From the UHGV virus genome UHGV-0797466: a stretch of DNA of 9,708 nucleotides. One strand, given 5' to 3'. The notes below the pieces were generated by a model. That model was not told the DNA's origin, made no database searches, and worked only from the letters and a program-made list of their open reading frames with translations. Origin of the DNA: a virus. Position numbers and translations under genes: made by a program. Position 1 is the stretch's first letter. Every line of letters begins with the position of its first letter. Shown piece by piece: positions 1-9,708 of this stretch.

Positions 1-13
1 GCCAGGAGGACCC

Positions 14-38
14 GTAAAAAAGCCGGATTGCTCCGGCT
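14..38 (-). terminator. Rho-independent terminator downstream of the SSB gene
   Basis: Hairpin AGCCGGA (21-27) / TCCGGCT (32-38) with a 4-nt loop; the A-run at 16-21 is a U-run on the minus-strand transcript. It lies 16 nt past the SSB stop at 54-56. The same block (about 85% identical) recurs at 8751-8775. Confidence 0.6.
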
Positions 39-53
39 TCTGTCACTCGTCGC

Positions 54-476
54 TTAAAACGGTATGTTATCCCCGTACGGATCATCATTCCCCGCCTGTT
101 GTTTTGCCCTGTTCAGCGCGTCAGTAGCCTGGCCCTGTTGACCTTTTTTGCCGCCCAGTCGCGCCGTTCGCGCACTGATTACACTGTCTGCGATAACCTG
201 CCAGCCCTGCCGCGTTTCTCCGTTCTGCCCAGTCCACTGGCTGATCTGCATGTTACCCGCCACGCTCAGGAGTTCACCCTTGCGGTGCCTTTCCAGTGCT
301 TCGGCCTGTCTGCCAAATGCCAGGACGGATAACCACATCGTCGCCGTTCCGTCATCTGCCTGGCTGCACGGAAGGGGGACCGCCATACGCGCCAGCGTCA
401 TCGGTGTGCCCTTGCTGGTCTGTTTTACCTGCGGGTCGTCCACCAGCCGCCCGTAAGCGGCTATCTGTGCTGTCAT
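54..476 (-). CDS. ssb: Single-stranded DNA-binding protein (SSB, OB-fold) of phage/plasmid type
   Basis: 140-aa ORF. The core resembles E. coli SSB as remembered (TMWLSVLAFGRQAEALERHRKGELLSVAGNMQISQWTGQNGETRQ vs [42 protein letters not shown]). It has a Gly/Gln-rich linker and an acidic tail ending DNIPF (E. coli SSB ends DDDIPF). ATG at 474-476 overlaps the upstream stop (ATGA); SD-like GGAGAGGTGG lies upstream. Confidence 0.85.
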   Translation of the reverse strand: MTAQIAAYGRLVDDPQVKQTSKGTPMTLARMAVPLPCSQADDGTATMWLSVLAFGRQAEALERHRKGELLSVAGNMQISQWTGQNGETRQGWQVIADSVISARTARLGGKKGQQGQATDALNRAKQQAGNDDPYGDNIPF

Positions 477-751
477 GATTCCACCTCTCCGGTTTTAACG
501 TTGATGGTTGTTACCTGTTCCGCTTCGGCAATCTCCCGTTCTGTCAGCGTGGCAAAGTTTGCCGCCGTCGTGGTCATGAATGCGCTTATCAGTTCGGGAT
601 GTGCTTTCGCGTATCCTTCCCCCGCGTGGCGGTCTATCGTTCTGATTGCCACCTTTAAAGCGTGCTCTGTCATGTCTAACGCGCGATATTTCGGTTCTGT
701 TCTGTCTCTGCGTTTTTTGAGTGATTTATTAAATTTCCCTGAAGTGTGCAT
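473..751 (-). CDS. Hypothetical small basic protein (92 aa) between the origin and ssb
   Basis: ATG at 749-751 preceded by SD-like GAGGGGG (762-768, about 10-nt spacer). Stop overlaps the ssb start. Lysine/arginine-rich N-terminus. No family recognised. Confidence 0.5.
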   Translation of the reverse strand: MHTSGKFNKSLKKRRDRTEPKYRALDMTEHALKVAIRTIDRHAGEGYAKAHPELISAFMTTTAANFATLTEREIAEAEQVTTINVKTGEVES

Positions 752-801
752 ATTTATTTTTACCCCCTCGTTTAAAAAGTTTTGAGTTGTGCCTCCCCTT
801 G

Positions 802-1026
802 TCTACCTTATCTACCTTAGTGGCCCTCATGCCAGTAATGGCGCGGCTTTCAGCGGGGTAGAGTGCTTTTATCCACTATCTACCCCGTGTCTACCTCCCT
901 GTCTGACTCAGGTAAAATCAGGTAGAGAGGGTAGATAGTGGGTAGACAGTAAAAAAAAGCTATCTACCTAACTTAATGCACTGAATTAAATGTATTTTTC
1001 TTTACTCAGGTAGACAGGGTAGACAG
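802..1026. repeat. Iteron field, putative replication origin
   Basis: At least 11 copies of the hexamer core TCTACC / GGTAGA in about 225 bp: TCTACC at 802, 811, 879, 890, 963; GGTAGA at 857, 921, 930, 941, 1009, 1018. Extended form GGTAGACAG appears three times. An A8 tract (951-958) and an AT-rich stretch (971-1003) are embedded. It sits directly downstream of the primase/helicase gene, as P4 ori/crr iterons sit near alpha. Confidence 0.7.
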
Positions 1027-1039
1027 CAATTACAAAAAA

Positions 1040-2794
1040 TTATAAAAACGCGTCGCACTCGTCTGTTGTTATTGCGTTAGTCTGCGTTACTCCCTTAACT
1101 TTCCGCGTAATATATTCATGTCCGTAAACTTTCGCGGCTGGCTTCATAGCCTTGCCAAAGTCATTTACGTTTAGCGGTTTGCTCCTGCCTGCGTACGCCA
1201 TAAACGCCAGATAGACGCGGTAAAGGCTGTTTCTGGTCGTGTACTTCACTGAATCGCCACCGCCGCCCATCATCAGGCCGCGTGCTTCCTCCAGAAAATT
1301 CAGGAACTGGCAAAACTCAATAACCGGATCCGTCTGTTGCTTTATTGCCAGTGCTTCATCACCGTCACGCTGTTCCAGTAGTAAAGCCCGTGCTTTCTCA
1401 GAGTCGGTAAAGTTCGCCAGCAATCGGCGGATAATGACAGGGATTTCAGCCGCAATCTTTTCCGGTAGCTCCCTGTCTTTTTCGGCCTCACTGACGATAT
1501 TGTCGAAACGGAAAATCACGCGACGACGTGCCACACCTCCGGCCCGTTCGGTGAATATCATCGGGTTGTTGTTGGTCGCCAGCACCACCGCCCTGATTAC
1601 CGCCGTAAAACGCTTTTCATATTTCGGGTTAATTTCCACGGGGTCACCGCCCGTGATTTTCTTGATGCCCGTTCCTTCGCCTGTATATTTCGGCTGGTCA
1701 GCCAGGACGATAAGACGACTCCCGACAACCTGCGCACGTCCACCAGCATCATCAAGCGATGTCATTTCAGCGCTTACCGTGTTCTGTTTCCCTGCCAGAA
1801 GGCTGGCTATGTGCGTGAATGTACTTTTACCGCTCCCGCCGTCTCCGGTGGCCTCAATAAACATCTGCCAGTCGTACCGGTTCGCCATAATCATGTACAG
1901 CGCGGCACATATACGCATCATCTTGCGCGGGTCTTTTCCGGCTGCGTGCTTAAGCCATTTATGAAAGTTTGGCGCGTTATCGCGGATGTTCTCCCCTGGT
2001 GCTGGTGGCGTGTACTCAATGCCGTTGTTCGTGGTGATCCAGTTCTCCGGCGTGTGCGGGGAAAATTCCCCCGTTTTCAGGTCAAGCGCACCATTGGCGA
2101 ACGGCAGCAAATCGCCGGACGGCTCGCCCATTGGTTCGGCAATAACTTTTAACGCTTCCACGGCGTTATTGATTACGCGCTTGCTGAAAGTGGCCCTGTG
2201 CTCTGAATAGATCGCCACCATTTCGCGGCTAAGTTCCATTGTGCTGACCGGACACCATACCCCGCCGCGCCATACGTGAACGATTTCACTTTCAGGATGT
2301 ACGCAAACGCCATCAAAGCGATCGGCAAGCAGCTGCGCGCGCTCACTGTCCGCCATCTGCGAAAGTTGCGCCTTTTGCTTTACCGGAAGCTCAATGACCA
2401 GACCATCAGAAAGATTCTGGCGCTCACGGGCCAGATATTCGCGCCAGTTCTCCACCTTCTGACCGTGCATACCATCAGGGTAAAAATTTGCATCCTGAAT
2501 ATCTGCCGCCGCCAGCTTCTGACCAATCTTTTTGGTCTCCACTAAATCCAGTTCTCCGGCCTGGTACAGCCTTACGCGCTTTTTCCCATCCGGAACAATT
2601 TTCAGCGCATCAAGTTCGGCAAGCTGATTTGGCCCAAGCCACACAGGCGGCACATTATCGCCGGATGCGGGGCCGTCCTGCTCCTGCCACTGTTTTGCAT
2701 GTGACCACGCATCACTACCCGCGAAAATAATTACCTCTGTGTCTTTGTGTTTTATTCCGCGTGGTTGTTTTTTTACGTTCGGTGCCAGTTTCAT
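1040..2794 (-). CDS. P4 alpha-like primase/helicase (phage/plasmid primase with P-loop NTPase domain)
   Basis: 584-aa ORF with Walker A motif GDGGSGKST. General resemblance to P4-family primase C-terminal / D5-type NTPase proteins. ATG at 2792-2794 overlaps the upstream stop (ATGA); SD-like CAGGGGT lies 5 nt upstream. An iteron field lies immediately downstream. Confidence 0.85.
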   Translation of the reverse strand: MKLAPNVKKQPRGIKHKDTEVIIFAGSDAWSHAKQWQEQDGPASGDNVPPVWLGPNQLAELDALKIVPDGKKRVRLYQAGELDLVETKKIGQKLAAADIQDANFYPDGMHGQKVENWREYLARERQNLSDGLVIELPVKQKAQLSQMADSERAQLLADRFDGVCVHPESEIVHVWRGGVWCPVSTMELSREMVAIYSEHRATFSKRVINNAVEALKVIAEPMGEPSGDLLPFANGALDLKTGEFSPHTPENWITTNNGIEYTPPAPGENIRDNAPNFHKWLKHAAGKDPRKMMRICAALYMIMANRYDWQMFIEATGDGGSGKSTFTHIASLLAGKQNTVSAEMTSLDDAGGRAQVVGSRLIVLADQPKYTGEGTGIKKITGGDPVEINPKYEKRFTAVIRAVVLATNNNPMIFTERAGGVARRRVIFRFDNIVSEAEKDRELPEKIAAEIPVIIRRLLANFTDSEKARALLLEQRDGDEALAIKQQTDPVIEFCQFLNFLEEARGLMMGGGGDSVKYTTRNSLYRVYLAFMAYAGRSKPLNVNDFGKAMKPAAKVYGHEYITRKVKGVTQTNAITTDECDAFL

Positions 2795-3090
2795 TTCTTA
2801 CCCCTGAATACGTTAAGCATCTTTTTTATTTCCTGAATATTGGCGCGTGCTTTCTCCCTGCTGGTGGGCACGTTACGCGGTACGGCCTGCACCAGAGAAA
2901 AATCACGATCGAACTGATAAACAGGCATCACGCAATCATATTCGTAGCCTTCACGACGGTAGGTTACGCGCCGTTCCTCCACGCCCTTAATCATTACCGT
3001 GCCGCCGTACTGGTCGCGGTAAATATCACCGCGCATGAATTTAGTGCGAGTTTTGCCACTGGCAGTTAAGCCAGAATATTTAAGTTTCAT
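2791..3090 (-). CDS. Hypothetical protein (99 aa), translationally coupled to the primase gene
   Basis: ATG at 3088-3090 with GGAGAA 8 nt upstream. Stop overlaps the primase start. No family recognised. Confidence 0.6.
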   Translation of the reverse strand: MKLKYSGLTASGKTRTKFMRGDIYRDQYGGTVMIKGVEERRVTYRREGYEYDCVMPVYQFDRDFSLVQAVPRNVPTSREKARANIQEIKKMLNVFRGKK

Positions 3091-3095
3091 TATTT

Positions 3096-3326
3096 TTATT
3101 CTCCGGTGTGGAGCGCTTTATTATTCTCGTGAATTGCCATAGCCTTATTGAGTTCATCAATAACAGGTGTCAATAATGTCTGAACAGCGGCAAACATTAA
3201 TGATGAATGATCTTCGCCACCTTCCGGCACTTCAATTAATTTAATTAACAACGCATTCATTTCGCGTGCTTTAATTAATGCGTTTTCAGAGTGGATTAAT
3301 ACTTCAAAAGGGATTTTATGCATCAC
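3096..3326 (-). CDS. Hypothetical small protein (76 aa) in the AT-rich island
   Basis: Starts ATGATG at 3321-3326 with AGGGAGA 7 nt upstream. Overlaps the upstream gene by 11 nt. Sequence is visibly AT-rich. Confidence 0.5.
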   Translation of the reverse strand: MMHKIPFEVLIHSENALIKAREMNALLIKLIEVPEGGEDHSSLMFAAVQTLLTPVIDELNKAMAIHENNKALHTGE

Positions 3327-3546
3327 AAATTTTCTCCCTTATTCTTTTAATGTCCTCATTAAGGATGTCTGTAACTTTTATCAGCGAGTTTTTGGCAATT
3401 ATTTTTATTGTTTTAAGTTTTCTTTTGTCGTGCTCCGACTGTGATTTTCTCTCCATAATCTCCACCATGTGGGTAACATCAACGAGCGCACGTATCAGTA
3501 TTTGCATTGCTTCTTCTGCTGCGTCCGGTGTGGTTTTATTGCACAT
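3316..3546 (-). CDS. Hypothetical small protein (76 aa) in the AT-rich island
   Basis: ATG at 3544-3546 with strong SD GGAGGGG 3-5 nt upstream. Overlaps the 3' end of the 89-aa ORF in another frame. Charged, probably helical. Confidence 0.5.
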   Translation of the reverse strand: MCNKTTPDAAEEAMQILIRALVDVTHMVEIMERKSQSEHDKRKLKTIKIIAKNSLIKVTDILNEDIKRIREKICDA

Positions 3547-3764
3547 GTACCCCTCCGCATTTTTTCGTTAGAAATAAGCGTTCTTCTTTCCTGTTCATCG
3601 CTCAGGAATACGCAGACCTCACCGCTAAGGCGTTTAAGTAAGCCGATGATTGCCCCTGATTCGCTGTCGGTCATCATGCCAGGGTAATCCTCTGCCAGTG
3701 CGCAAATAACTTCGATTTGGTGGGCGCGTTCTGCTGCCTGTTGTAGTGTGATTTCCTGACTCAT
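3495..3764 (-). CDS. Hypothetical protein (89 aa)
   Basis: ATG at 3762-3764 overlaps the stop of the upstream Icd-like gene (ATGA). The C-terminal about 17 aa overlap the next ORF, so the true 3' end is uncertain. Confidence 0.45.
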   Translation of the reverse strand: MSQEITLQQAAERAHQIEVICALAEDYPGMMTDSESGAIIGLLKRLSGEVCVFLSDEQERRTLISNEKMRRGTCAIKPHRTQQKKQCKY

Positions 3765-4222
3765 AAGCCTACCCCCTGACGAATACGGGCGACAAAAATC
3801 AGATGTGCGTGCGGCAGCTGTGCACGTGCTTCGCGCTCAGTGGCAGCGGTAACGGTGAATATTGCAATGCTGTCTGTCAGGCACTGCATAAAGCGCCAGA
3901 CAAAATAAGGGCGTGCGGATACAGCCATGTGAAAGGCTCCCAGATGAATTTTAAGGAGTCTCGCTACTACGCTGTCAAACATGGTGGCGAGACGTAACAG
4001 GGTTGACAGACTGGTCATCTGGAAACCAGCGAGCACAAAGGCTCCCCCGTTACGCCCCGCCATAATGCGGGTATGGGTAGGTTTACGGACACAAAAAAAC
4101 CGCTTATCGGATGTGGGCGGCTGTCCGCCAGATGTATTCAGGCTGTCAAACCCGGTCGCCATGTGGGCGACGGGGGAAGCATACAGCCCCGTGATAATTT
4201 TTTGCAAGCGGTTTTTACGCAT
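3761..4222 (-). CDS. Ash/Icd-like protein (153 aa) with C-terminal Icd-like motif
   Basis: C-terminus TEREARAQLPHAHLIFVARIRQG matches the remembered Icd-like motif (SE.EAR ... LSFAAR). ATG at 4220-4222 overlaps the upstream stop (cATGcgTAA); SD-like AGGGG lies 7 nt upstream. An internal start at 3928 (GGGAG SD) is an alternative. Confidence 0.6.
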   Translation of the reverse strand: MRKNRLQKIITGLYASPVAHMATGFDSLNTSGGQPPTSDKRFFCVRKPTHTRIMAGRNGGAFVLAGFQMTSLSTLLRLATMFDSVVARLLKIHLGAFHMAVSARPYFVWRFMQCLTDSIAIFTVTAATEREARAQLPHAHLIFVARIRQGVGL

Positions 4223-4418
4223 GATATGACCCCTGGCGAATACGGGCAGCGAATACCATCACGCAGCCAGCCGGAGATTGCTGACGCGCTTCCTGTTCGC
4301 TGGTGGCCTCGATGGTAATCACGCGCGGTTGTGCCGTGCTCAGGGCGATAAAACGCCAGATGTATTTATTCAGGTTGTACGAGTCCCGCCCTTGCGGGTG
4401 TCTGGTATAATTTCTCAT
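4215..4418 (-). CDS. Host cell division inhibitor Icd-like small protein (67 aa)
   Basis: This is the C-terminal 67 codons of the 382-aa ORF in the track; the rest is judged spurious. ATG at 4416-4418 with GAGG 5 nt upstream. C-terminus SEQEARQQSPAGCVMVFAARIRQG is paralogous to the next gene and fits the Icd-like motif. Confidence 0.6.
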   Translation of the reverse strand: MRNYTRHPQGRDSYNLNKYIWRFIALSTAQPRVITIEATSEQEARQQSPAGCVMVFAARIRQGSYHA

Positions 4419-4439
4419 AGCTACCTCGATACTTTCGCT

Positions 4440-4614
4440 ATCGTTGGTGGTTAGAAGCCCTGCATGTGTTCCAGCACTGCGGGGCTTTGCTGTACATACA
4501 CCACAATCATTAGTGTGTGTACAGATTAAATTTAAGTGCGCTACAGTGTCAAGTGTTTTATTTACACACCTTTTGGTGTAATGTATGCACACCTCAAAAT
4601 AACCGGACATTCTG
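4440..4614. promoter_or_regulatory. Divergent promoter/operator region between the leftward operon and the RHH gene
   Basis: Lies between divergent starts at 4418 (-) and 4615 (+). Imperfect 9-bp-stem hairpin AAGCCCTGC (4453-4461) / GCGGGGCTT (4478-4486). Palindromic motif TTACAC...GTGTAA / ACACC-TTTT-GGTGT at 4561-4580 and related TACATACACC at 4492-4501. Decamer AACCGGACAT at 4600-4609. Confidence 0.5.
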
Positions 4615-4920
4615 ATGGCAACAGGAAATATCAACAGCAGATCGCAAATGAAAAATATCCGCTTCCCCCATGATGTAATCGAGGAAATGGAAAATTCGAA
4701 AACGGAAGGGGAAACAATAGCCGCTTTCGTGATTACAGCCGTTCGCGGTGAGATCGCCCGCCGCCAGGCAGAAGGAAGCGGAGAAAATCCCCTGGTTTCT
4801 TCGCTCGATGCACTGGCGCAGGTGGAAAAAATCGGAGTCAAAGCAGCCGAGGAGATCGGGCAACTCATCACCGTCGCGCGTGAAGAACTCCAGCGTCGCA
4901 AGGCCAAAGAGCAGGAGTGA
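4615..4920 (+). CDS. Arc/Mnt-like ribbon-helix-helix DNA-binding protein, candidate satellite repressor
   Basis: Segment KNIRFPHDVIEEMEN aligns with the P22 Arc N-terminus as remembered (FNLRWPREVLDLVRK), followed by a helical, charged C-terminal extension. It is the only convincing plus-strand gene, divergent from the main operon, and followed by a strong terminator. Start could be M1 (4615) or M12 (4648); neither has a strong SD. Confidence 0.65.
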   Translation: MATGNINSRSQMKNIRFPHDVIEEMENSKTEGETIAAFVITAVRGEIARRQAEGSGENPLVSSLDALAQVEKIGVKAAEEIGQLITVAREELQRRKAKEQE

Positions 4921-4962
4921 CCATCACCAGCGCCGTGGTGTAAGGTATTACGGCGCATTGCT

Positions 4963-5151
4963 ATGCAGGACAACACAATGACCGATAAAGAATTGACCAA
5001 AACATTATCACCGGCACGGAAAAGACGGCGCAGAAAGATAGAGCATGAATCAGAAAGATTCGCGCCATGTGCTTTTGCCCTTGAGCAATTCCTTAAAGAG
5101 TACAGGGAAAAGCGCTCATTGCAGGTATGGCAACGAACTGAACCAGACTGA
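4963..5151 (+). CDS. Possible small basic protein (62 aa) downstream of the RHH gene
   Basis: ORF in the same frame as the RHH gene, separated from it by a single TGA (4918-4920). No convincing SD. It fills most of the gap before the terminator. Weak call. Confidence 0.3.
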   Translation: MQDNTMTDKELTKTLSPARKRRRRKIEHESERFAPCAFALEQFLKEYREKRSLQVWQRTEPD

Positions 5152-5246
5152 TTGCATTGCCCACCAGCCTGATAACGGCTATCATCCCCGTGCTTATGTT
5201 TGGGATCACACACACAAACGGCGCAGCGGGTTATCTGTTCAGAAAG

Positions 5247-5274
5247 GCGGCTCCATTTCGGGGCCGCTTTTTTT
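5247..5274 (+). terminator. Rho-independent terminator ending the rightward (RHH) transcription unit
   Basis: 8-bp stem GCGGCTCC (5247-5254) / GGGGCCGC (5260-5267) with one G-U pair, loop ATTTC, followed by T7 (5268-5274). Confidence 0.75.
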
Positions 5275-5396
5275 ATACCTGAAAAACCCCAATTTTGTTG
5301 TTTTTCAGTTTCACCAGGGCGAACGAATCCCCGCCCACGTTCTGGCGTATATTCAATCTTCATGGTTATAGCTCTGTGTTCAGATGATTGATGTGT

Positions 5397-5413
5397 GGCG
5401 GCTGCGTGCCGCC
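5397..5413 (-). other. GC-rich hairpin just 3' of alpA
   Basis: Perfect 6-bp stem GGCGGC / GCCGCC with loop TGCGT, 8 nt past the alpA stop. No U-run follows on the minus strand, so it is not a canonical terminator. Confidence 0.3.
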
Positions 5414-5420
5414 AGCGTGA

Positions 5421-5609
5421 TTAATGAACTGCCTTGCAGCTATCCTTCCAGGCCAGAACCTCGGATAAAGACCAGCCAACGGAACGACCGCCAAGTTTAC
5501 GACGTGATGGGAATTGTCCGGCCTTTTCCAGGCGGTAGCGACACGTACGGCTAAGGCCGGTTAGTTTTTCGCATTCTTTTTCACGTATAAACCGATCAGT
5601 GCTTAACAC
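5421..5609 (-). CDS. alpA: AlpA-family HTH regulator (excisionase-like)
   Basis: C-terminal part LTGLSRTCRYRLEKAGQFPSRRKLGGRSVGWSLSEVLAWK resembles the AlpA family (ITGLS...YRL...G.FP....LG.R.VGW...E...W). The track ORF (5421-5690) starts at TTG. I prefer the GTG at 5607-5609, which has a strong SD (GGGGGG, 5-nt spacer) and gives 62 aa, the usual AlpA size. Confidence 0.75.
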   Translation of the reverse strand: MLSTDRFIREKECEKLTGLSRTCRYRLEKAGQFPSRRKLGGRSVGWSLSEVLAWKDSCKAVH

Positions 5610-5760
5610 TATTGCCCCCCTTTCGTTTCTTAAAGAGTCATCAGGTGTCTTATTGTGTCGTATTGTTCCCGCTAGAGTGATGAATGGCAAATACTGAGGA
5701 TATATGATTTACAGAAAATGAAACAGTAAGAATAAAATCTTTTAAATTCATGTTAATACA

Positions 5761-5791
5761 AAGGCATAAAATATTGTTCCATGCCTTTTTT
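5761..5791. terminator. Hairpin with flanking T-run in the int-alpA intergenic region
   Basis: Stem AAGGCAT (5761-5767) / ATGCCTT (5781-5787), 13-nt loop, T6 at 5786-5791 on the plus strand. The minus-strand side is moderately U-rich. Could terminate int read-through; modest confidence. Confidence 0.35.
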
Positions 5792-5880
5792 CTCGCTCTT
5801 TAAAGAGTGATTCGCTAGTGTACAAAAAACCAGTAACACATTAAAAATCAGCTACTTATAAATCCGTACGCTTTTTCGCC

Positions 5881-5930
5881 TCTTGTTCGTAGTTGTTCCA
5901 CATTGTTGCTCATTGTTGCACGTTGTATCT
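5881..5930. repeat. Five 10-bp-phased TTGTT repeats just 3' of int
   Basis: Decamers tcTTGTTcgt, agTTGTTcca, caTTGTTgct, caTTGTTgca, cgTTGTatct begin at 5881, 5891, 5901, 5911, 5921, in exact 10-bp register. Confidence 0.5.
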
Positions 5931-5974
5931 GTTCGCATATCCAGTATGCGCATACTGAAAAAACACGAAAAAAA

Positions 5975-7204
5975 TTATTTTCTTCTGGCTACGGGTAGCG
6001 TGGTTACGTTTTCATGTGTTCCCGCCAGTATCCCTAACCGCTCCGTCCACATATCCAGCGCATTGCGTTTCGCATCCAGATAACGGGAATGATTATAAAC
6101 TCGCTGCATTCCTGGCATCTGGTGGCCTGTAAGCTGCTCCACGACATGCGGATCAACGCCTAAATCGTTCAGCATGGTTGTAAAGGTGCGCCGGATGTCA
6201 TGCAGTGACCAGTGAGGGTGATTAAGCCTCCTGTGCGCTAATCTTCCATACTGCGATACGCTGGCCTCCTGTTTCACTTCCCCCAGCAATAAGCCCGTGT
6301 GCCTGTTCTGCTCCACCAGCTGCGTGACGAACGGCAGGATCGCTTCCGGTATGGGCCGGAATATTGCGACCTTCGTTTTGCTGTGCTCCTTCGGAACGGT
6401 CCATAGCATTTCCGTAAAATCCCACTCCCCGATCTCCGATAACCTCAGTTCTACCGTTCTGGCTCCGAAGACAATCAGGAGGCGGATTAACGCGACGTAG
6501 TAAGGGGAGAATATTTTTTTGTCCAGTGCCTGCAATAATTCGCCAAGTTCTTTGTTACTTAAGACACGTTCGCTTATATCCGGTTTTTTCCCAACGTCCG
6601 CCACGTTCAGATCGTCCAGAACGTTGCTGATTGCATAGCGCCGCCTACGGCAGAACTTAAGCGCCTGTTTGCACGCCTGTAGCACGAATCCGGCAGTAAC
6701 AGGCGTTCGCTTTGCCACCTGGTCAAAACAGGCCAGCCAGTGCCGTAGCTCGCATTTATCCAGCGGCATAGCACCAATCTGCTGTATTACGTGATTATTA
6801 AGTCGCCTTTTCAGGGCGATATAATCCACGCGGTTTTCCTTTACGTAATACTCAAGCCAGTAGGTGAGCGCATCGCCAACCGTTACGGGCTTTAACGCTT
6901 CCTGTACGGTGTAATTCATCTCATGACGTGGATTTTTCCCCTCAGCCAGCCATGTGCGACACTGTGCGGCTTTTTCCCTGGCTGCTTTCAGGCTCAGATC
7001 AGGATAACTTCCCAGCTTAATGCGTTCGGGTCGTGTCTCCCTTCCCGTTCCGGCCCTGTATGTGAAATACCAGGTCAATTTCCCTGATGTTAAATATTTC
7101 ACGCTCAGGTTTCCGCCATCACTATAAAACGTGTTTTTCTCCGCTGGCTTACCATGAAGTTTCCTTAGCAAGGTATCGCTCAGTTTGTTCATTGCTCTGC
7201 TCAC
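5975..7204 (-). CDS. int: Tyrosine recombinase, P4-like integrase
   Basis: 409-aa ORF. N-terminal arm-binding-like region (SDGGNLSVKYLTSGKLTWYFTYR ... KLGSYPDLSLKAAREKAAQ) resembles P4-family integrases. C-terminal catalytic region contains HDIRRT and a Tyr near the end (RVYNHSRYL). GTG at 7202-7204 with SD GAGGGGG 6 nt upstream; an in-frame ATG at 7192 is an alternative. Confidence 0.9.
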   Translation of the reverse strand: MSRAMNKLSDTLLRKLHGKPAEKNTFYSDGGNLSVKYLTSGKLTWYFTYRAGTGRETRPERIKLGSYPDLSLKAAREKAAQCRTWLAEGKNPRHEMNYTVQEALKPVTVGDALTYWLEYYVKENRVDYIALKRRLNNHVIQQIGAMPLDKCELRHWLACFDQVAKRTPVTAGFVLQACKQALKFCRRRRYAISNVLDDLNVADVGKKPDISERVLSNKELGELLQALDKKIFSPYYVALIRLLIVFGARTVELRLSEIGEWDFTEMLWTVPKEHSKTKVAIFRPIPEAILPFVTQLVEQNRHTGLLLGEVKQEASVSQYGRLAHRRLNHPHWSLHDIRRTFTTMLNDLGVDPHVVEQLTGHQMPGMQRVYNHSRYLDAKRNALDMWTERLGILAGTHENVTTLPVARRK

Positions 7205-7228
7205 GTTTTACCCCCTCTTTACGAAAAA

Positions 7229-7620
7229 GTGACTACACCAGTGACTACACCGTTCGGTGCACTGTATAGAAACAACGTGGAACAAATAGACACAAGAAAT
7301 ATACAGGCGGGTCATCTTTCCAGGGGGAAGCGCGCTAATTCATGAGGGGCGTTAATGTTGATATGGGGATCCCCATAACGGGGCTACCGGATTTTTTTCC
7401 GGTTTAACTGTTAATCAGGCTGGTGGGCTTTACCTGTTTTGTAGGAGTGGTCATTATGACCATTCAGACAATGACCTTAATCAGAACTTTTCGCTAAAAA
7501 ATGACGTTGGTCACGTCGTCCGGAAAGCACAAAATCCCGTCAATTTTTAATTAACGGTTAAACCGTCTTTTGTCACGGCGTGTCACTGGTTGTCACTCTC
7601 CGTCACGGTATGTCGCTACT
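7229..7620. other. attP-like region: arm-type repeats on both sides of a palindrome-rich central segment
   Basis: Tandem 12-bp repeat GTGACTACACC(A/G) at 7229-7240 and 7241-7252, 25 bp upstream of int. Five 10-bp-phased repeats at 7571-7620 (TGTCACggcg, TGTCACtggt, TGTCACtctc, cGTCACggta, TGTCgCtact). GTCAC is the reverse complement of GTGAC, and GTCACT resembles the lambda Int arm-site core (AGTCACTAT) as remembered. Between them: perfect palindromes TATGGGGATCCCCATA (7362-7377) and GGTCATTATGACC (7449-7461), and a hairpin at 7386-7403. Confidence 0.5.
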
Positions 7621-7622
7621 CG

Positions 7623-7904
7623 TTAACGCCGTAACCGCTCCGGCTTCTTCCAGTGGTACGTAATTTTCTCCGTTTCCCGATACAGTGCCACGCGGCGATT
7701 GTAGGCCAGCATTTCAAGAACGCGGATCCGTATGTTGCGCATATCCACATCATTAAGCTGGATACCATCACGGCGCATCACCTCAGCAACCACACGCGCG
7801 TAATTTTCGGCGGTCACGCTGTCCGGCTGCGTGGCCTGTTCGTCATGCTGCTGGCTGATTCCGGTAACGCGGCGGATTAATCCCAGTAGTTCGGCTTCTG
7901 TCAT
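7623..7904 (-). CDS. Hypothetical protein (93 aa) between cos and the att region
   Basis: The track ORF (7623-8102) would run across the cos site. The internal ATG at 7902-7904 (MTEAELLGLIRR...) has an SD-like GGGGG upstream and leaves cos intact. No family recognised. Confidence 0.5.
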   Translation of the reverse strand: MTEAELLGLIRRVTGISQQHDEQATQPDSVTAENYARVVAEVMRRDGIQLNDVDMRNIRIRVLEMLAYNRRVALYRETEKITYHWKKPERLRR

Positions 7905-7938
7905 TGTGCCCCCATCGCTCTGATAGTCTGGTGTCGTC

Positions 7939-8116
7939 GGGTCCTTCCTGGAATTATGGCCCGTTACGGGGCGGCGACCTCGCGCGTTTTCACTATTTAT
8001 GAAAATTTTTCGGGATCCATGTCCGGTTTCTCTGCAAGTTAACCATATGAAAAATATAAAAACATGCTTTCCATGAACCGGACATGCGCAAAAAACAGAC
8101 ACTAAAACCGGACATC
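7939..8116 (+). other. Lambda-type cos site (cosQ-like flank, cosN, cosB-like repeats), plus-strand orientation
   Basis: 7969-7980 is GGGCGGCGACCT, the lambda 12-nt cohesive end as remembered. The flanks resemble the lambda left end (CGCGcGTTTTCaCTATTTATGAAAATTTTtCGG) and right end (GGGTCCTTcC..GG..CGTTACG). cosB-like repeats follow: ATGTCCGGTT (8019-8028, inverted), AACCGGACAT (8076-8085), AACCGGACAT (8106-8115), with an AT-rich spacer that could be an IHF site. Confidence 0.75.
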
Positions 8117-8183
8117 GAACCAGTTAACCGAAAGTGTGCACAAATCACATGCATTGCTGCGAGTGATTAACAAGTTATCGGCT

Positions 8184-8618
8184 TTACTGTTCTGTATCGG
8201 CTGATTGCTCCATGCTGGCACGGCGAACGCTTATGGCATGACGCCACCCAGCCAGAAAGCCAGCCATTTTATTTCGTGCCTTGCTCACATCTTCCGGTGA
8301 ATAGCCGTAAATCTGCAAACCTTCATCAAATCGATGTTCTGTTTCTTCACTGGAGTACTCGTCACGCTCAGATGAAAGCAGCCTGGCAAACATAATTTTT
8401 TCCAGCGCACTGGTTTCTACGTGATATCTGATGGTCTCAAGACGGCTTTTACCTGAAGACCAAAGCAATGTATGCCCGATGTGATAACCGCCAGACTTTC
8501 CGCGATCCGCATTAAGATACGGCATCCCCTGTTTGGTCCATGCGCGAATAGTGGTTCTGTTAACCTTGAAATGTTCAGCTATTTCCTGCTGACTTACAAA
8601 ACAAGCTTTATCAATCAT
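8184..8618 (-). CDS. Nu1-like terminase small subunit homolog (winged-HTH); candidate Rpp-type packaging redirector
   Basis: N-terminus VSQQEIAEHFKVNRTTIRAWTKQGMPY aligns with lambda gpNu1 (VNKKQLADIFGASIRTIQNWQEQGMPV) as remembered. 144 aa. ATG at 8616-8618 with AAGGT SD. No terminase large subunit follows, which fits a satellite TerS-like protein rather than a phage terminase operon. Confidence 0.8.
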   Translation of the reverse strand: MIDKACFVSQQEIAEHFKVNRTTIRAWTKQGMPYLNADRGKSGGYHIGHTLLWSSGKSRLETIRYHVETSALEKIMFARLLSSERDEYSSEETEHRFDEGLQIYGYSPEDVSKARNKMAGFLAGWRHAISVRRASMEQSADTEQ

Positions 8619-8685
8619 AATGTTACCTTAACTGCATGGTTAAATATTAATCAAGTGGTGGTGGTGTCACCTTCACGGAAAAACG

Positions 8686-8750
8686 TCATAAATAGCGAAA
8701 ACCCGCGAGGTCGCCGCCCCGTAACGGGTCCATAATTCCAGGAAGGACCC
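8686..8750 (-). other. Second lambda-type cosQ-cosN module, inverted relative to 7939-8003, upstream of the Nu1-like gene
   Basis: The reverse complement of 8686-8750 reads GGGTCCTTCCTGGAATTATGGACCCGTTACGGGGCGGCGACCTCGCGGGTTTTCGCTATTTATGA. cosN is at 8708-8719 on the minus strand. The 22 nt after cosN match lambda exactly as remembered. No AACCGGACAT repeats lie between this cosN and the gene start. Confidence 0.7.
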
Positions 8751-8775
8751 GTAAAAAAGCCGGATTTCTCCGGCC
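8751..8775 (-). terminator. Rho-independent terminator downstream of the 137-aa gene, abutting the cosQ-like flank
   Basis: Hairpin GCCGGA (8759-8764) / TCCGGC (8769-8774) with loop TTTC; the A-run at 8753-8758 is a U-run on the minus-strand RNA. It lies 7 nt past the stop at 8781-8783 and is paralogous to the terminator at 14-38. Confidence 0.6.
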
Positions 8776-8780
8776 TTGTC

Positions 8781-9194
8781 TCAGATGGTTTTCAGTATGC
8801 GATCGATGTCGCCGTCATCGCCCTGGTTTCTGCCATCGTATGCCATGCCAGCTGATACGGCTTGCGGGCTGTGCATGTCCATAAAGTTTTCAAAGGCTGC
8901 GGTAAGTTCCGGCGCAACCTTCGGACGTTCCTGCTCTATGGTCATGCTAAGGATGCTTTTAGCCGTACCAACATCGATACAAGGCACGTTTGCCATTGCA
9001 CGCAACAGCGGCTGATAGTCTTTATGCTCATGAAGCGCCATAATCGCATCAGCGCGCGGCTTGTCCTGCTCTTCCAGTTTGTTTAGTTGATATACGGCCT
9101 CATAGGTTGATAAACCTCTGTCAGCCATTGCCCGCGCTTCGGCTTTAAATTTACTCGCCAGCGGTAGCGTCATGATGCTTTCATTCGTTGCCAT
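8781..9194 (-). CDS. Hypothetical protein (137 aa) between the gpD-like gene and cos
   Basis: ATG at 9192-9194 with AGGGGGA SD. Acidic C-terminal region. No family recognised. A capsid-related role is suggested by position only. Confidence 0.55.
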   Translation of the reverse strand: MATNESIMTLPLASKFKAEARAMADRGLSTYEAVYQLNKLEEQDKPRADAIMALHEHKDYQPLLRAMANVPCIDVGTAKSILSMTIEQERPKVAPELTAAFENFMDMHSPQAVSAGMAYDGRNQGDDGDIDRILKTI

Positions 9195-9206
9195 CGTTCC
9201 CCCTGC

Positions 9207-9542
9207 TTATCGGGCCAGCGGCTGAACGGATACGCCGGAACCCGCAAAGGCGGCGCATTTTTTCGCATCGGTGTCGACGCTCTCAGGCCAGTTAACGGCG
9301 GCAATATTGAATATCCCCGTCTTGTAACACTGTGCTGATTTCTGCTTTGACGTGTCCACAGGGTACGAGGTCAGATAAACAGCCTTGCCAGATTCCTTAC
9401 CATCCCACGGCTTAAACTCGCCATTGTCCGCCAGCATCAGCGGGGTAAATTCCTGAATAACGCCAGCATCAGCGGCAAAATGTACCAGCGTCGTGGCGAC
9501 CTGCTGACTGCCTGCAAATAACTCAATGTATGGAGTGTCCAT
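9207..9542 (-). CDS. Head decoration protein, lambda gpD-like
   Basis: 111 aa. TPLMLADNGEFKPWDG ... YKTGIFNIAAVNWPESVDTDAKKCAAFAGSGVSV matches lambda gpD as remembered (TPLMLDTSSRKLVAWDG ... [35 protein letters not shown]). ATG at 9540-9542. Confidence 0.8.
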   Translation of the reverse strand: MDTPYIELFAGSQQVATTLVHFAADAGVIQEFTPLMLADNGEFKPWDGKESGKAVYLTSYPVDTSKQKSAQCYKTGIFNIAAVNWPESVDTDAKKCAAFAGSGVSVQPLAR

Positions 9543-9553
9543 AGAATCCCCCG

Positions 9554-9708
9554 TTAACCAATTTTGACGGTAACAAATTTGCGAATATCTGCCGGAACCG
9601 GCTGCGGTGCGCTGTGCGTCTGCACGTACTCAATCGCCGGATCGCCGTCCTCAATCCAGTTTTTCGGGTAAAAAATGGTCCGAGCAGGATAAAGACATGC
9701 ACGACCCA
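9554..9708 (-). CDS. 3' end of an upstream ORF running off the window (possibly scaffold/protease-like by synteny with lambda Nu3/C before D)
   Basis: Open minus-strand frame ending at TAA (9554-9556). Hand-translated C-terminus: ...WIEDGDPAIEYVQTHSAPQPVPADIRKFVTVKIG. Function is inferred from position only. Confidence 0.35.
   Translation of the reverse strand, partial: GRACLYPARTIFYPKNWIEDGDPAIEYVQTHSAPQPVPADIRKFVTVKIG

What the first reader, a model, noticed from the sequence alone, without database searches (positions are those of the whole stretch)
1..8790. Conserved terminator plus cosQ-like junction reused with different upstream cargo; a third cos probably lies just off the left edge
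Positions 1-45 are about 85% identical to 8737-8780: ccagga(a)ggacccgtaaaaaagccggatt(g/t)ctccggc, containing the same terminator hairpin. At 8737 this block is immediately followed (minus-strand sense) by cosQ-cosN, so the window start is probably about 20-30 bp from another minus-oriented cosN. The gene upstream of the block differs (ssb at the left end, the 137-aa gene at 8781-9194). That suggests a modular cargo slot next to cos, with related but non-identical elements present. If a cos exists just left of position 1, the two minus-strand cos sites are about 8.7 kb apart, a plausible satellite unit length.
Basis: partly seen in the sequence, partly recalled or inferred. Interest (0 to 1): 0.5.

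Follow-up and report, generated by a model that had tools for sequence, protein, structure and literature searches.

The report
Third, foreign-type cos site in a PICI
The repeated block is a transcription terminator fused to the packaging-termination motif cosQ in a known E. coli phage satellite, and just off the window's left edge it leads into a third packaging site copied from a different group of lambda-like phages, which may let the satellite be packaged by a second class of helper phage.

Summary
Window 1-45 and 8737-8780 share a block (31 nt at 97%) made of a terminator hairpin, a T-run and the cosQ heptamer GGGTCCT.

The window is the excised, attP-joined form of one 11.2-kb EcCICFT073-family cos PICI. 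It is not two related elements. That family is already known to carry Rpp and two lambda-type cos sites, both present here: cos1 at 8708-8719(-) and cos2 at 7969-7980(+).

The two block copies flank the island's conserved capsid-like gene module. They lie 2.44 kb apart one way round and 8.74 kb the other.

In a 99.9%-identical genome and an about 99.9%-identical IMG/VR contig, the bases left of position 1 contain no lambda-type cosN and no Nu1-like ORF. They do contain a cos-like site with lambda geometry: cosQ, 24 nt, then GGGCGGGAGGCG, 19-30 nt left of position 1. About 170 bp there is 87-90% identical to the Rz-terS intergenic region of Stx-converting lambdoid phages. Those phages have a DUF1441 TerS unrelated to Nu1 or Rpp.

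The prototype EcCICFT073 lacks this site. 160 of 5,426 complete E. coli genomes have it.

Likely role: an Rpp-independent packaging signal for a second helper class. Homology is shown; function is inferred. I found no published description.

The parts
1..45 (-). Block copy 1: ssb terminator (hairpin 22-37, T-run 14-21 as read on the minus strand) plus cosQ heptamer GGGTCCT (7-13). This is the upstream edge of the third, Stx-phage-type cos cassette. Its 12-mer and cosB lie off-window to the left (L001 11780-11951).
54..476 (-). ssb gene (140 aa). Its stop codon lies 43 nt before cosQ of site 3 in all ssb-proximal sites recovered.
800..1025 (.). Replication origin iterons, GGTAGA(C/T/G)A, 10 copies on both strands, next to the primase gene.
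   Evidence: position after pri-rep as described for Gram-negative PICIs in PMC6092414
1040..2794 (-). PICI primase/replicase (D5_N, DUF5906, Pox_D5 domains).
5421..5690 (-). AlpA-family regulator/excisionase. This is the mechanical ORF; RefSeq annotates a shorter 189-nt helix-turn-helix CDS here.
5975..7204 (-). Tyrosine integrase.
7230..7252 (.). att core TGACTACACCAGTGACTACACCG (attP junction). The same core flanks the island in tqsA of E. coli 300033, which shows the window is the excised or concatemeric form.
7623..7904 (-). Conserved 93-aa gene (phrog_1561, function unknown), the last gene before att in both PICI lineages.
7939..8015 (+). cos2: inverted lambda-type cos (cosQ 7939-7945, cosN 7969-7980, then a lambda-like stretch). 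It forms an inverted repeat with cos1 around rpp.
   Evidence: (I1, I3); two cos sites reported for EcCICFT073 in PMC6092414. Calling this one cos2 is my inference from position.
8184..8618 (-). rpp (redirecting phage packaging) homolog, 144 aa.
   Evidence: PDB 6hlk RppC, E=4.5e-31, residues 2-125; PMC6739421
8619..8750 (-). cos1: cosQ 8744-8750, 24-nt spacer, cosN 8708-8719, PICI-type cosB. The stretch 8655-8670 (GTGACACCACCACCAC) is cosN positions 50-65, within the bp 48-65 segment proposed as R3-PICI.
   Evidence: PMC9026076 sections 2.1 and 2.3
8737..8780 (-). Block copy 2: terminator of the capsid-like operon (hairpin 8759-8774, T-run) plus cosQ of cos1.
8781..9677 (-). 3' part of the capsid-like module: 137-aa gene (8781-9194; C-terminal similarity to head maturation protease/scaffold phrog_53), gpD-like head decoration gene (9207-9542, PF02924) and the 3' end of the lambda-E-like major capsid gene.
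9678..9708 (.). Inverted fragment of the capsid gene. A fold-back or chimeric contig end, not part of the biology.

Best explanation
Shown:
- The window is the excised (attP-joined) form of an 11.2-kb EcCICFT073-family cos PICI.
- The repeated block is a Rho-independent terminator fused to the cosQ heptamer. It occurs twice in the same orientation because the island carries two co-oriented cos-type sites, one each side of its capsid-like gene module.
- One is the known lambda-type cos1 in front of rpp.
- The other lies directly after ssb, with only its terminator and cosQ edge inside the window. It is a roughly 170-bp cassette with lambda geometry: cosQ, 24 nt, the 12-mer GGGCGGGAGGCG, then a cosB-like stretch.
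- That cassette is 87-90% identical to the Rz-to-terS intergenic region, where cos sits in lambda, of Stx-converting lambdoid phages. More distant matches extend to mEp460, mEp213 and Fels-1. The TerS genes checked here (Stx2d_112808 and mEp460_4F5) are DUF1441 proteins; the Stx2d one, which was compared directly, has no detectable similarity to lambda Nu1 or to Rpp.

Inferred:
- Rpp works by mimicking the Nu1 DNA-binding domain, so it probably cannot redirect a DUF1441 TerS.
- Carrying that phage group's own cosQ-cosN-cosB would instead let their unmodified terminase recognise, cut and package island concatemers.
- The island would then have two packaging routes: Rpp-dependent through cos1 for Nu1-type helpers, and Rpp-independent through the ssb-proximal cos for DUF1441-type helpers.
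- Four island units total 44.7 kb, close to the 45.9-kb Stx2d_112808 genome and 92% of lambda.
For: Identity of the element:
- Rpp homolog.
- int, AlpA, primase and ssb domains, and ori iterons.
- Two exact lambda cosN sites.
- 92% DNA identity to the CFT073 island. The published description is in PMC6092414 and PMC6739421.

Circular permutation and unit size.

Site 3:
- Sequence left of position 1.
- In the cosQ-anchored alignment, site 3 and the Stx2d and VT1-Sakai cos regions share lambda's 24-nt cosQ-to-12-mer spacing, and mEp460 and mEp213 are within 1-2 nt. The aligned mEp213 12-mer is GGGCGGCGCGCT, which PMC12315714 quotes as that phage's putative cohesive end.
- 87-90% identity over query positions 30-199 to nine Stx-phage records. 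The match lies between Rz and terS/terL in the two records whose annotation I read, Stx2d_112808 and VT1-Sakai.
- In IMG/VR, 40 phage contexts have Rz, then the site, then a DUF1441 terS 189-233 nt downstream (one at 400). Five more show the same terS with no Rz detected within 1.5 kb upstream.
- The TerS is DUF1441, with no BLASTP similarity to Nu1 or Rpp.

Use by satellites:
- 18 elements of a sister PICI lineage (17 IMG/VR contigs plus strain F3398) place this cos type in front of the same 93-aa gene. They have a Gifsy-2-like protease-capsid fusion gene. F3398 has no rpp annotated and no lambda-type cosN.
- 14 rpp-lineage elements carry the ssb-proximal copy at an identical position.
- The right boundary of homology (GTTCGACATCTTT) is the same in the window's island, the two Stx phages and the F3398 island. 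This argues for transfer as a unit.
- CATCATC/GATGATG inverted motifs flank an A/T-rich stretch with an IHF-like match, resembling lambda's R3-I1-R2 layout.

Frequency: 160 of 5,426 complete E. coli genomes carry ssb plus site 3, including ATCC 25922.
Against: - There are no functional data, and I found no experimentally mapped cohesive ends for this phage group.
- The PICI 12-mer differs from the common phage form at position 8 (A, not C). mEp460 also reads GGGCGGGAG.
- The studied prototype EcCICFT073 transfers well without the site (PMC6092414).
- Site 3 (98.8% mean identity among 15 islands) is no more conserved than the non-coding stretch next to it (97.8%). The conservation may only reflect recent spread of one module.
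- Single islands carry changes in cosQ (L015) or in the 12-mer (L037). F3398's ssb-proximal copy has a degenerate cosQ.
- All 7 type-A carrier genomes listed show a single place for the query, so none has a resident prophage with this cos type.
- No terS follows the site in the island.
Confidence: 0.55

Rival explanations
1. Recombination scar. The ssb-proximal cassette is an inactive leftover of exchange between this PICI lineage and either the sister lineage or an Stx-type phage. It is carried along as part of a recently spread non-coding module, and only the terminator in the block still works.
For: - Only 7 of the 24 Rpp-selected relatives that include ssb carry it, and CFT073 does not.
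- It is no more conserved than the adjacent intergenic DNA.
- There are scattered singleton changes, including in cosQ and the 12-mer.
- A G9 homopolymer variant lies in the spacer of the window's own element.
- The listed carriers have no matching prophage.
Against: - All three subsites and the exact 24-nt cosQ-cosN spacing are intact.
- The cassette's left edge is cosQ and its right edge is the same in phage, sister PICI and this island. That is what transfer of a functional unit predicts.
- It sits at exactly the same place, 43 nt after ssb, in two PICI lineages with different cosB variants. This suggests repeated acquisition or retention.
- The same cos type is the only cos site found in the sister-lineage island that was read in full, F3398.
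Confidence: 0.3
2. Two related satellites sit side by side, each ending in a terminator, cosQ, lambda cosN and a Nu1-like gene, with a swappable cargo gene upstream. The unit length is 8.7 kb.
For: - The block is repeated 8,737 bp apart within the window.
- The slot after ssb does vary among relatives.
Against: - Both halves of the window map to one island in E. coli 300033, joined at the att core.
- No lambda cosN at up to 2 mismatches and no Nu1-like ORF lie left of position 1.
- The island is 11,177 bp.
- The capsid-like module is constant in the 25 relatives.
- No genome joins ssb directly to cos1.
Confidence: 0.02
3. The similarity is only two related Rho-independent terminators, and the cosQ match at position 7-13 is incidental.
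For: Relatives that lack site 3 still have a similar hairpin after ssb (GAAGCCGGAGAAGTTCGGCTTTTTTATGCCCC in L011 and L017). The hairpin is therefore older than the cassette.
Against: In type-A islands the identity continues through ACGGGTCCT and (T)CCTGG, and is followed at lambda spacing by a cos-like 12-mer and 130 bp of phage cosB homology. Terminator-only variants diverge right after the T-run.
Confidence: 0.05
4. The direct repeats serve as recombination substrates that let the capsid-like module be lost or gained.
For: 31-45 bp direct repeats flank a 2.4-kb module.
Against: 0 of 5,426 complete genomes contain the predicted deletion junction, ssb-block-cos1-rpp. All 25 relatives keep the module.
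Confidence: 0.03

Closest known systems
EcCICFT073 and related Gram-negative cos PICIs (Fillol-Salom 2018, PMC6092414; 2019, PMC6739421; Murialdo and Feiss 2022, PMC9026076)
   Same: - Same gene order: int, alpA, pri with ori, ssb, capsid-like genes, cos1, rpp, cos2.
- 92% DNA identity to the CFT073 island.
- An Rpp homolog.
- Two lambda-type cosQ/cosN sites with a non-lambda cosB.
   Different: - The prototype has a PerC-family gene after ssb and no third site.
- The window's island and about 160 E. coli genomes carry an extra cos cassette of a different phage type there.
- I found no mention of this in the papers searched.
cos region of Stx-converting lambdoid phages (VT1-Sakai, Stx2_112808), with more distant relatives in mEp460, mEp213 and Fels-1; the TerS genes checked are DUF1441
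   Same: - 87-90% identity over about 170 bp to the Stx-phage records.
- Same cosQ, spacer length, G-rich 12-mer and cosB-like repeats.
- Same right-hand boundary of homology in the Stx phages compared.
   Different: - In the island it is preceded by the ssb terminator rather than the phage's A/T hairpin.
- It is followed by the island's capsid-like operon rather than terS-terL.
- The 12-mer has A rather than C at position 8.
cos-type SaPIs (SaPIbov5, SaPIbov4) and P4
   Same: These satellites carry a copy of the helper's own cos and are packaged by unmodified helper terminase. PMC6092414 notes that SaPIbov4 has two putative cos sites.
   Different: They have no sequence relationship to this island. 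As far as I know, none combines a TerS-redirecting protein with a second cos of another specificity.

Membership tests
EcCICFT073-type cos PICI | Integrase and AlpA-type regulator at one end, bounded by att repeats | tested here: met
   PF00589 with an Arm-DNA-binding domain, and PF05930. A 23-bp att core flanks the island in tqsA and forms attP in the window.
EcCICFT073-type cos PICI | Own primase/replicase followed by an iteron-type origin | tested here: met
   D5_N, DUF5906 and Pox_D5 domains. Ten GGTAGANA iterons at 800-1025.
EcCICFT073-type cos PICI | Rpp protein encoded just downstream of a cos site | tested here: met
   The 144-aa ORF matches RppC (PDB 6hlk) at E=4.5e-31. cosN lies 90 nt upstream of its start codon.
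EcCICFT073-type cos PICI | Lambda-like cosQ and cosN with a cosB unlike the helper's, plus a second cos site | tested here: met
   Two exact GGGCGGCGACCT sites, each with GGGTCCT 23-24 nt upstream. The sequence beyond about +35 differs from lambda.
EcCICFT073-type cos PICI | Induction, replication and packaging by a helper phage | not testable with these tools
   The window carrying the attP junction indicates the excised or concatemeric form. That is not proof of helper-driven transfer.
Lambda-like cos site (applied to the off-window site 3) | cosQ heptamer GGGTCCT about 24 bp upstream of the nicking site | tested here: met
   GGGTCCT at window 7-13(-), with a 24-nt spacer to the 12-mer, the same spacing as in lambda and cos1.
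Lambda-like cos site (applied to the off-window site 3) | 12-bp cosN that terminase nicks to give cohesive ends | tested here: inconclusive
   The positional homolog is GGGCGGGAGGCG. It is not the lambda sequence. It aligns with the putative mEp213 end GGGCGGCGCGCT (PMC12315714). Nicking cannot be tested here.
Lambda-like cos site (applied to the off-window site 3) | cosB with TerS-binding repeats and an IHF site downstream of cosN | tested here: inconclusive
   About 130 bp after the 12-mer is 87-90% identical to the phage Rz-terS intergenic region. CATCATC/GATGATG inverted motifs and one IHF-like match with 1 mismatch are present. No binding data exist.
Lambda-like cos site (applied to the off-window site 3) | Lies immediately upstream of the small-terminase gene | tested here: not met
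   In the island the next genes are a 68-aa gene and a capsid-like gene. In the phages a DUF1441 terS follows 189-233 nt downstream in nearly all contexts recovered.
Rho-independent terminator (the hairpin in the block) | GC-rich stem-loop followed by a U-run just after a stop codon | tested here: met
   9-10 bp stems followed by U6. Each hairpin starts within about 20 nt of the stop codon of ssb or of the 137-aa gene. The consensus terminator scan did not report them.

The most novel reading that the evidence does not exclude
Enterobacterial PICIs keep a small repertoire of interchangeable cos cassettes. The slot right after the ssb terminator would be a landing pad for whole cosQ-cosN-cosB units taken from different lambdoid phage groups. 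One island could then be packaged by helpers with unrelated small terminases: Nu1-type through Rpp and cos1, and DUF1441-type directly through the ssb-proximal cos. The sister lineage carrying two Stx-type sites with different cosB variants would be another case of the same strategy.
Probability: 0.4. Interest if true: 0.6.

Novelty: new variant of a known kind. Interest (0 to 1): 0.45.

Why it matters
Helper range decides which phages can spread these virulence-associated islands. So far the only described route for E. coli cos PICIs is Rpp hijacking of Nu1-type TerS at lambda-type cos sites.

A second, heterologous cos would imply an Rpp-independent route. It would use the lambdoid phage group that includes Stx-converting phages of pathogenic E. 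coli.

The site is present in the common laboratory strain ATCC 25922. The idea can therefore be tested directly with the plasmid-transfer assays already used for cos1 and cos2.

If the site proves inactive, it still records recombination at cosQ between satellites and phages.

Tried and rejected
- **Decayed lambda cos.** I first read the left flank as a decayed lambda cos relic. I dropped this when the flank proved 87-90% identical to a living phage group's Rz-terS region.
- **P2/186 cohesive end.** I considered a resemblance of the G-rich 12-mer to the P2/186 end from memory. It was not pursued once the lambdoid homology was found.
- **Capsid-module deletion.** A chimeric ssb-block-cos1-rpp query found no genome covering the junction, so the repeats do not appear to mediate deletion.
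- **Selection on site 3.** It is no more conserved than its non-coding neighbour, so this test was uninformative.
- **Literature.** Searches for a third or heterologous cos in PICIs, and for the 12-mers as text, found nothing relevant. Vahanian et al. 2017 on cosN natural history is not in the library.
- **Terminator scan.** The consensus scan missed both hairpins, so I relied on folding.
- **Contig ends.** Two IMG/VR contigs end inside the Stx-type 12-mer. These could be physical ends or assembly breaks, so I did not use them as evidence.
Full report
**1. The observation**

Window 7-37 and 8744-8774 form a 31-nt direct repeat at 97% identity (D4). A 23-mer from the block occurs twice in a 27-kb genomic locus, against 0.00 expected from shuffles.

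Read on the minus strand, each copy is a 9-10 bp GC-rich hairpin (GCCGGAG-NAAT-CCGGC), then T6, then ACGGGTCCT. GGGTCCT is the lambda cosQ heptamer. This rests on my knowledge of lambda and on the lambda right end fetched.

The copy at 8737-8780 is followed in minus sense, after 24 nt, by an exact lambda cosN GGGCGGCGACCT at 8708-8719. The upstream genes are ssb (54-476) and a 137-aa gene (8781-9194).

**2. What the window is**

The best genomic match is E. coli 300033. Two collinear pieces cover the window up to 9677, at 99.9% and 99.8% identity:
- Window 1-7262 equals L001 11952-19215.
- Window 7222-9677 equals L001 7998-10451.

The pieces overlap at an att core, TGACTACACCAGTGACTACACCG (7230-7252), which flanks the island in tqsA. 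The window is therefore the excised or concatemeric form of a single 11,177-bp island, read across attP. It is not two elements. The last 31 nt (9678-9708) are an inverted piece of the capsid gene, which is a contig-end artefact.

Gene order in the genome is: attL, 93-aa gene, cos(+), rpp, cos(-), terminator, 137-aa gene, gpD-like, lambda-E-like capsid gene, 68-aa gene, about 360 bp of intergenic DNA, block, ssb, 92-aa gene, ori iterons, primase, several small genes, alpA, int, attR.

ORF 8184-8618 matches RppC (PDB 6hlk) at E=4.5e-31. CFT073 itself matches at 92%. This is the EcCICFT073 family. That family is already described as carrying Rpp, two lambda-type cos sites (cos1 essential, cos2 dispensable), a capsid-protein homolog (c1499) and a head-decoration homolog (c1500) (PMC6092414, PMC6739421, PMC9026076).

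By position, cos1 is the site in front of rpp (8708-8719, minus) and cos2 is the inverted one (7969-7980, plus). That assignment is my inference.

**3. Where the two blocks sit**

In the island the two block copies are 2,440 bp apart and flank the capsid-like module. The 8,737-bp spacing seen in the window is the long way round through attP.

The module is not variable cargo. All 25 IMG/VR relatives recovered with Rpp have the same order. No complete E. coli genome joins ssb through the block directly to cos1 and rpp (0 of 5,426).

**4. What lies left of position 1**

In L001 (99.9% identical to the window) and in IMG/VR contig 3300029508_000084 (held as L004 and L105; about 99.9% identical), the sequence in minus sense reads:

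...GCCGGAGCAATCCGGC TTTTTT AC GGGTCCT CCTGGCGGGGGGGGGCTGAACACG GGGCGGGAGGCG CGGAAAAAAGCGCATTTTTGTGATTTTATCGTCATCATCATCATGAGCG...

- No lambda cosN occurs there at up to 2 mismatches, and no Nu1-like ORF follows.
- The stretch is not a decayed relic either. Query positions 30-199 are 87-90% identical to nine Stx-converting phage records. In the two records whose annotation I read, Stx2d_112808 and VT1-Sakai, the match lies between the Rz endopeptidase gene and terS/terL, where cos sits in lambda. It is about 72-76% identical to sequence near the record ends of mEp460, mEp213 and mEp043.

Anchoring on cosQ aligns lambda, cos1, cos2, site 3, the Stx phages, mEp460 and mEp213 with a 22-24 nt spacer before a G-rich 12-mer. 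The mEp213 12-mer, GGGCGGCGCGCT, is the one quoted as its putative cohesive end (PMC12315714, citing Vahanian 2017 and M. Feiss).

**5. Which phages own this cos type**

Their TerS is a DUF1441 protein (PF07278, E=8e-49). It has no BLASTP similarity to lambda Nu1 or to Rpp.

An exact-pattern scan of IMG/VR gave 86 occurrences: 84 in the 79 IMG/VR stretches, plus L001 and L035, which I added to the analysis.

| Context | Count |
|---|---|
| Phage: Rz, site, DUF1441 terS 189-233 nt downstream (one at 400) | 40 |
| Phage: site and DUF1441 terS, no Rz detected within 1.5 kb upstream | 5 |
| Sister PICI lineage: protease-capsid fusion gene, site, then the 93-aa gene (17) or terL (1) | 18 |
| ssb-proximal site in the sister lineage, with the other cosB variant | 6 |
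| ssb-proximal site in rpp-lineage islands, 43 nt after ssb and 376 nt before the 68-aa gene | 14 |
| Incomplete or mixed context (Rz upstream, no DUF1441 terS downstream) | 3 |

- The phages show two cosB variants.
- In the sister lineage a Gifsy-2-like protease-capsid fusion gene replaces the lambda-type module. The one such island read in full (strain F3398) has no rpp annotated and no lambda-type cosN, and this cos type is its only intact cos site.
- In the rpp-lineage islands the 12-mer is GGGCGGGAGGCG in 13 of 14. Several contigs in that group are the same ones already recovered with Rpp.
- Homology ends at the same right boundary (GTTCGACATCTTT) in the window's island, the two Stx phages and the F3398 island.
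- Inside the cassette, CATCATC and GATGATG inverted motifs flank an A/T-rich stretch with one IHF-like match, loosely like lambda R3-I1-R2.

**6. Distribution**

- The slot after ssb has at least four states among relatives: the cos cassette (7 of the 24 Rpp-selected loci that include ssb), an extra gene (a PerC-family gene in CFT073), a short terminator-only form, and a form seen in more divergent islands.
- 160 of 5,426 complete E. coli genomes have ssb plus site 3 at 80% coverage or more, including ATCC 25922.
- All 7 such carriers listed showed one place only, so none has a resident prophage with this cos.

**7. Mechanism**

Shown:
- The block is a terminator plus cosQ.
- The island has two co-oriented cos-type sites of different sequence families flanking its capsid-like module, plus the inverted cos2.
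- The ssb-proximal one is homologous to the cos region of DUF1441-TerS phages.

Inferred:
- Rpp acts by mimicking the Nu1 DNA-binding domain and heterodimerising with Nu1-type TerS (PMC6739421). It is therefore unlikely to capture a DUF1441 TerS.
- Carrying that group's own cosQ-cosN-cosB would let their terminase package island concatemers directly, as cos SaPIs and P4 do with their helpers' cos.
- Four units (44.7 kb) fit a 46-48 kb head. This is consistent with the phage-sized packaging reported for EcCICFT073 (PMC6092414).

I put about 0.9 on the structural and homology statement and about 0.45-0.5 on function. The combined confidence is 0.55.

**8. Evidence against function**

- There are no packaging data, and the cohesive ends of this phage group are unmapped in the literature I could reach.
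- Position 8 of the 12-mer differs from the common phage form.
- The studied prototype lacks the site.
- Site 3 (98.8% mean identity among 15 islands) is no better conserved than the adjacent non-coding DNA (97.8%), while the flanking genes are mosaic (ssb 3' part 93%, 68-aa gene 84%). This pattern fits recent spread of one module as well as it fits selection.
- Singleton changes occur in cosQ (L015) and in the 12-mer (L037). F3398's ssb-proximal copy has a degenerate cosQ.

The main rival is therefore an inactive recombination scar (0.3).

**9. Novelty and verdict**

The element, Rpp, cos1, cos2 and the capsid-like genes are known. The repeated block is explained by them and by a third site.

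I did not find that third site, a heterologous cos cassette from another lambdoid group, in the PICI literature searched. It is absent from the prototype. I rate it a new variant of a known kind.

Interest is moderate (0.45). It is not surprising in principle, since satellites often carry helper cos sites. It does suggest a concrete, easily tested second packaging route that links these islands to the phage group that includes Stx-converting phages.

Noticed in passing
window 9666-9708: The last 31-43 nt are the reverse complement of capsid-gene sequence about 370 nt further along (L001 10859-10817). This is a fold-back or chimeric contig end. The window start abuts a C9/G9 homopolymer (L001 11943-11951), a likely assembly break.
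   Followed up: yes
window 7204-7622 (core 7230-7252): An attP junction. The window reads from int across the att core into the far end of the island. The source DNA was therefore the excised circle, a concatemer or a tandem copy, not the integrated island.
   Followed up: yes
L035 (E. coli F3398) 4090-7600; 17 IMG/VR contigs: A sister PICI lineage has a Gifsy-2-like ClpP-protease/capsid fusion gene in place of the lambda E/D-like module. F3398 has no rpp annotated and no lambda cosN. An Stx-type cos sits before the same 93-aa gene. Six IMG/VR members also have an ssb-proximal cos with a different cosB variant. In F3398 the island abuts a truncated prophage terminase gpA gene, so it may be a helper-embedded PICI.
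   Followed up: partly
L115 (E. coli ATCC 25922) 11040-11794: This island has site 3 and a lambda-type cosQ/cosN. Where the window has rpp, it encodes a 180-aa Nu1-family protein (PF07471, E=2.3e-23), with a different sequence after cosN. It also has a different integrase and integration site next to tRNA-Pro.
   Followed up: partly
L067 and L098 contig ends: Two IMG/VR contigs end 10-11 nt into the putative 12-mer of the Stx-type cos. This could reflect physical DNA ends, or assembly breaks at a G-rich repeat. I cannot tell which.
   Followed up: no
window 3761-4420 (repeat 3773-3801 / 4230-4258): Two adjacent Icd-like (host cell division inhibitor) genes share a 29-nt repeat at their 3' ends. 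A third Icd-like pseudogene overlaps a YlcI/YnfO-family gene on the other strand (4615-4920).
   Followed up: no
window 22-37 and 8759-8774: The consensus terminator scan listed neither hairpin, although both have 9-10 bp GC-rich stems followed by U6.
   Followed up: partly
lambda, Stx-phage and mEp213 sequence just upstream of cosQ: These three phage cos regions have a conserved A/T-rich hairpin plus T-run (TGATAA-N-TTATCA TTTT) directly before cosQ; mEp460 does not show it. The PICIs have a GC-rich terminator hairpin plus T-run in the same position. A hairpin and T-run before cosQ looks like a shared architectural feature.
   Followed up: no
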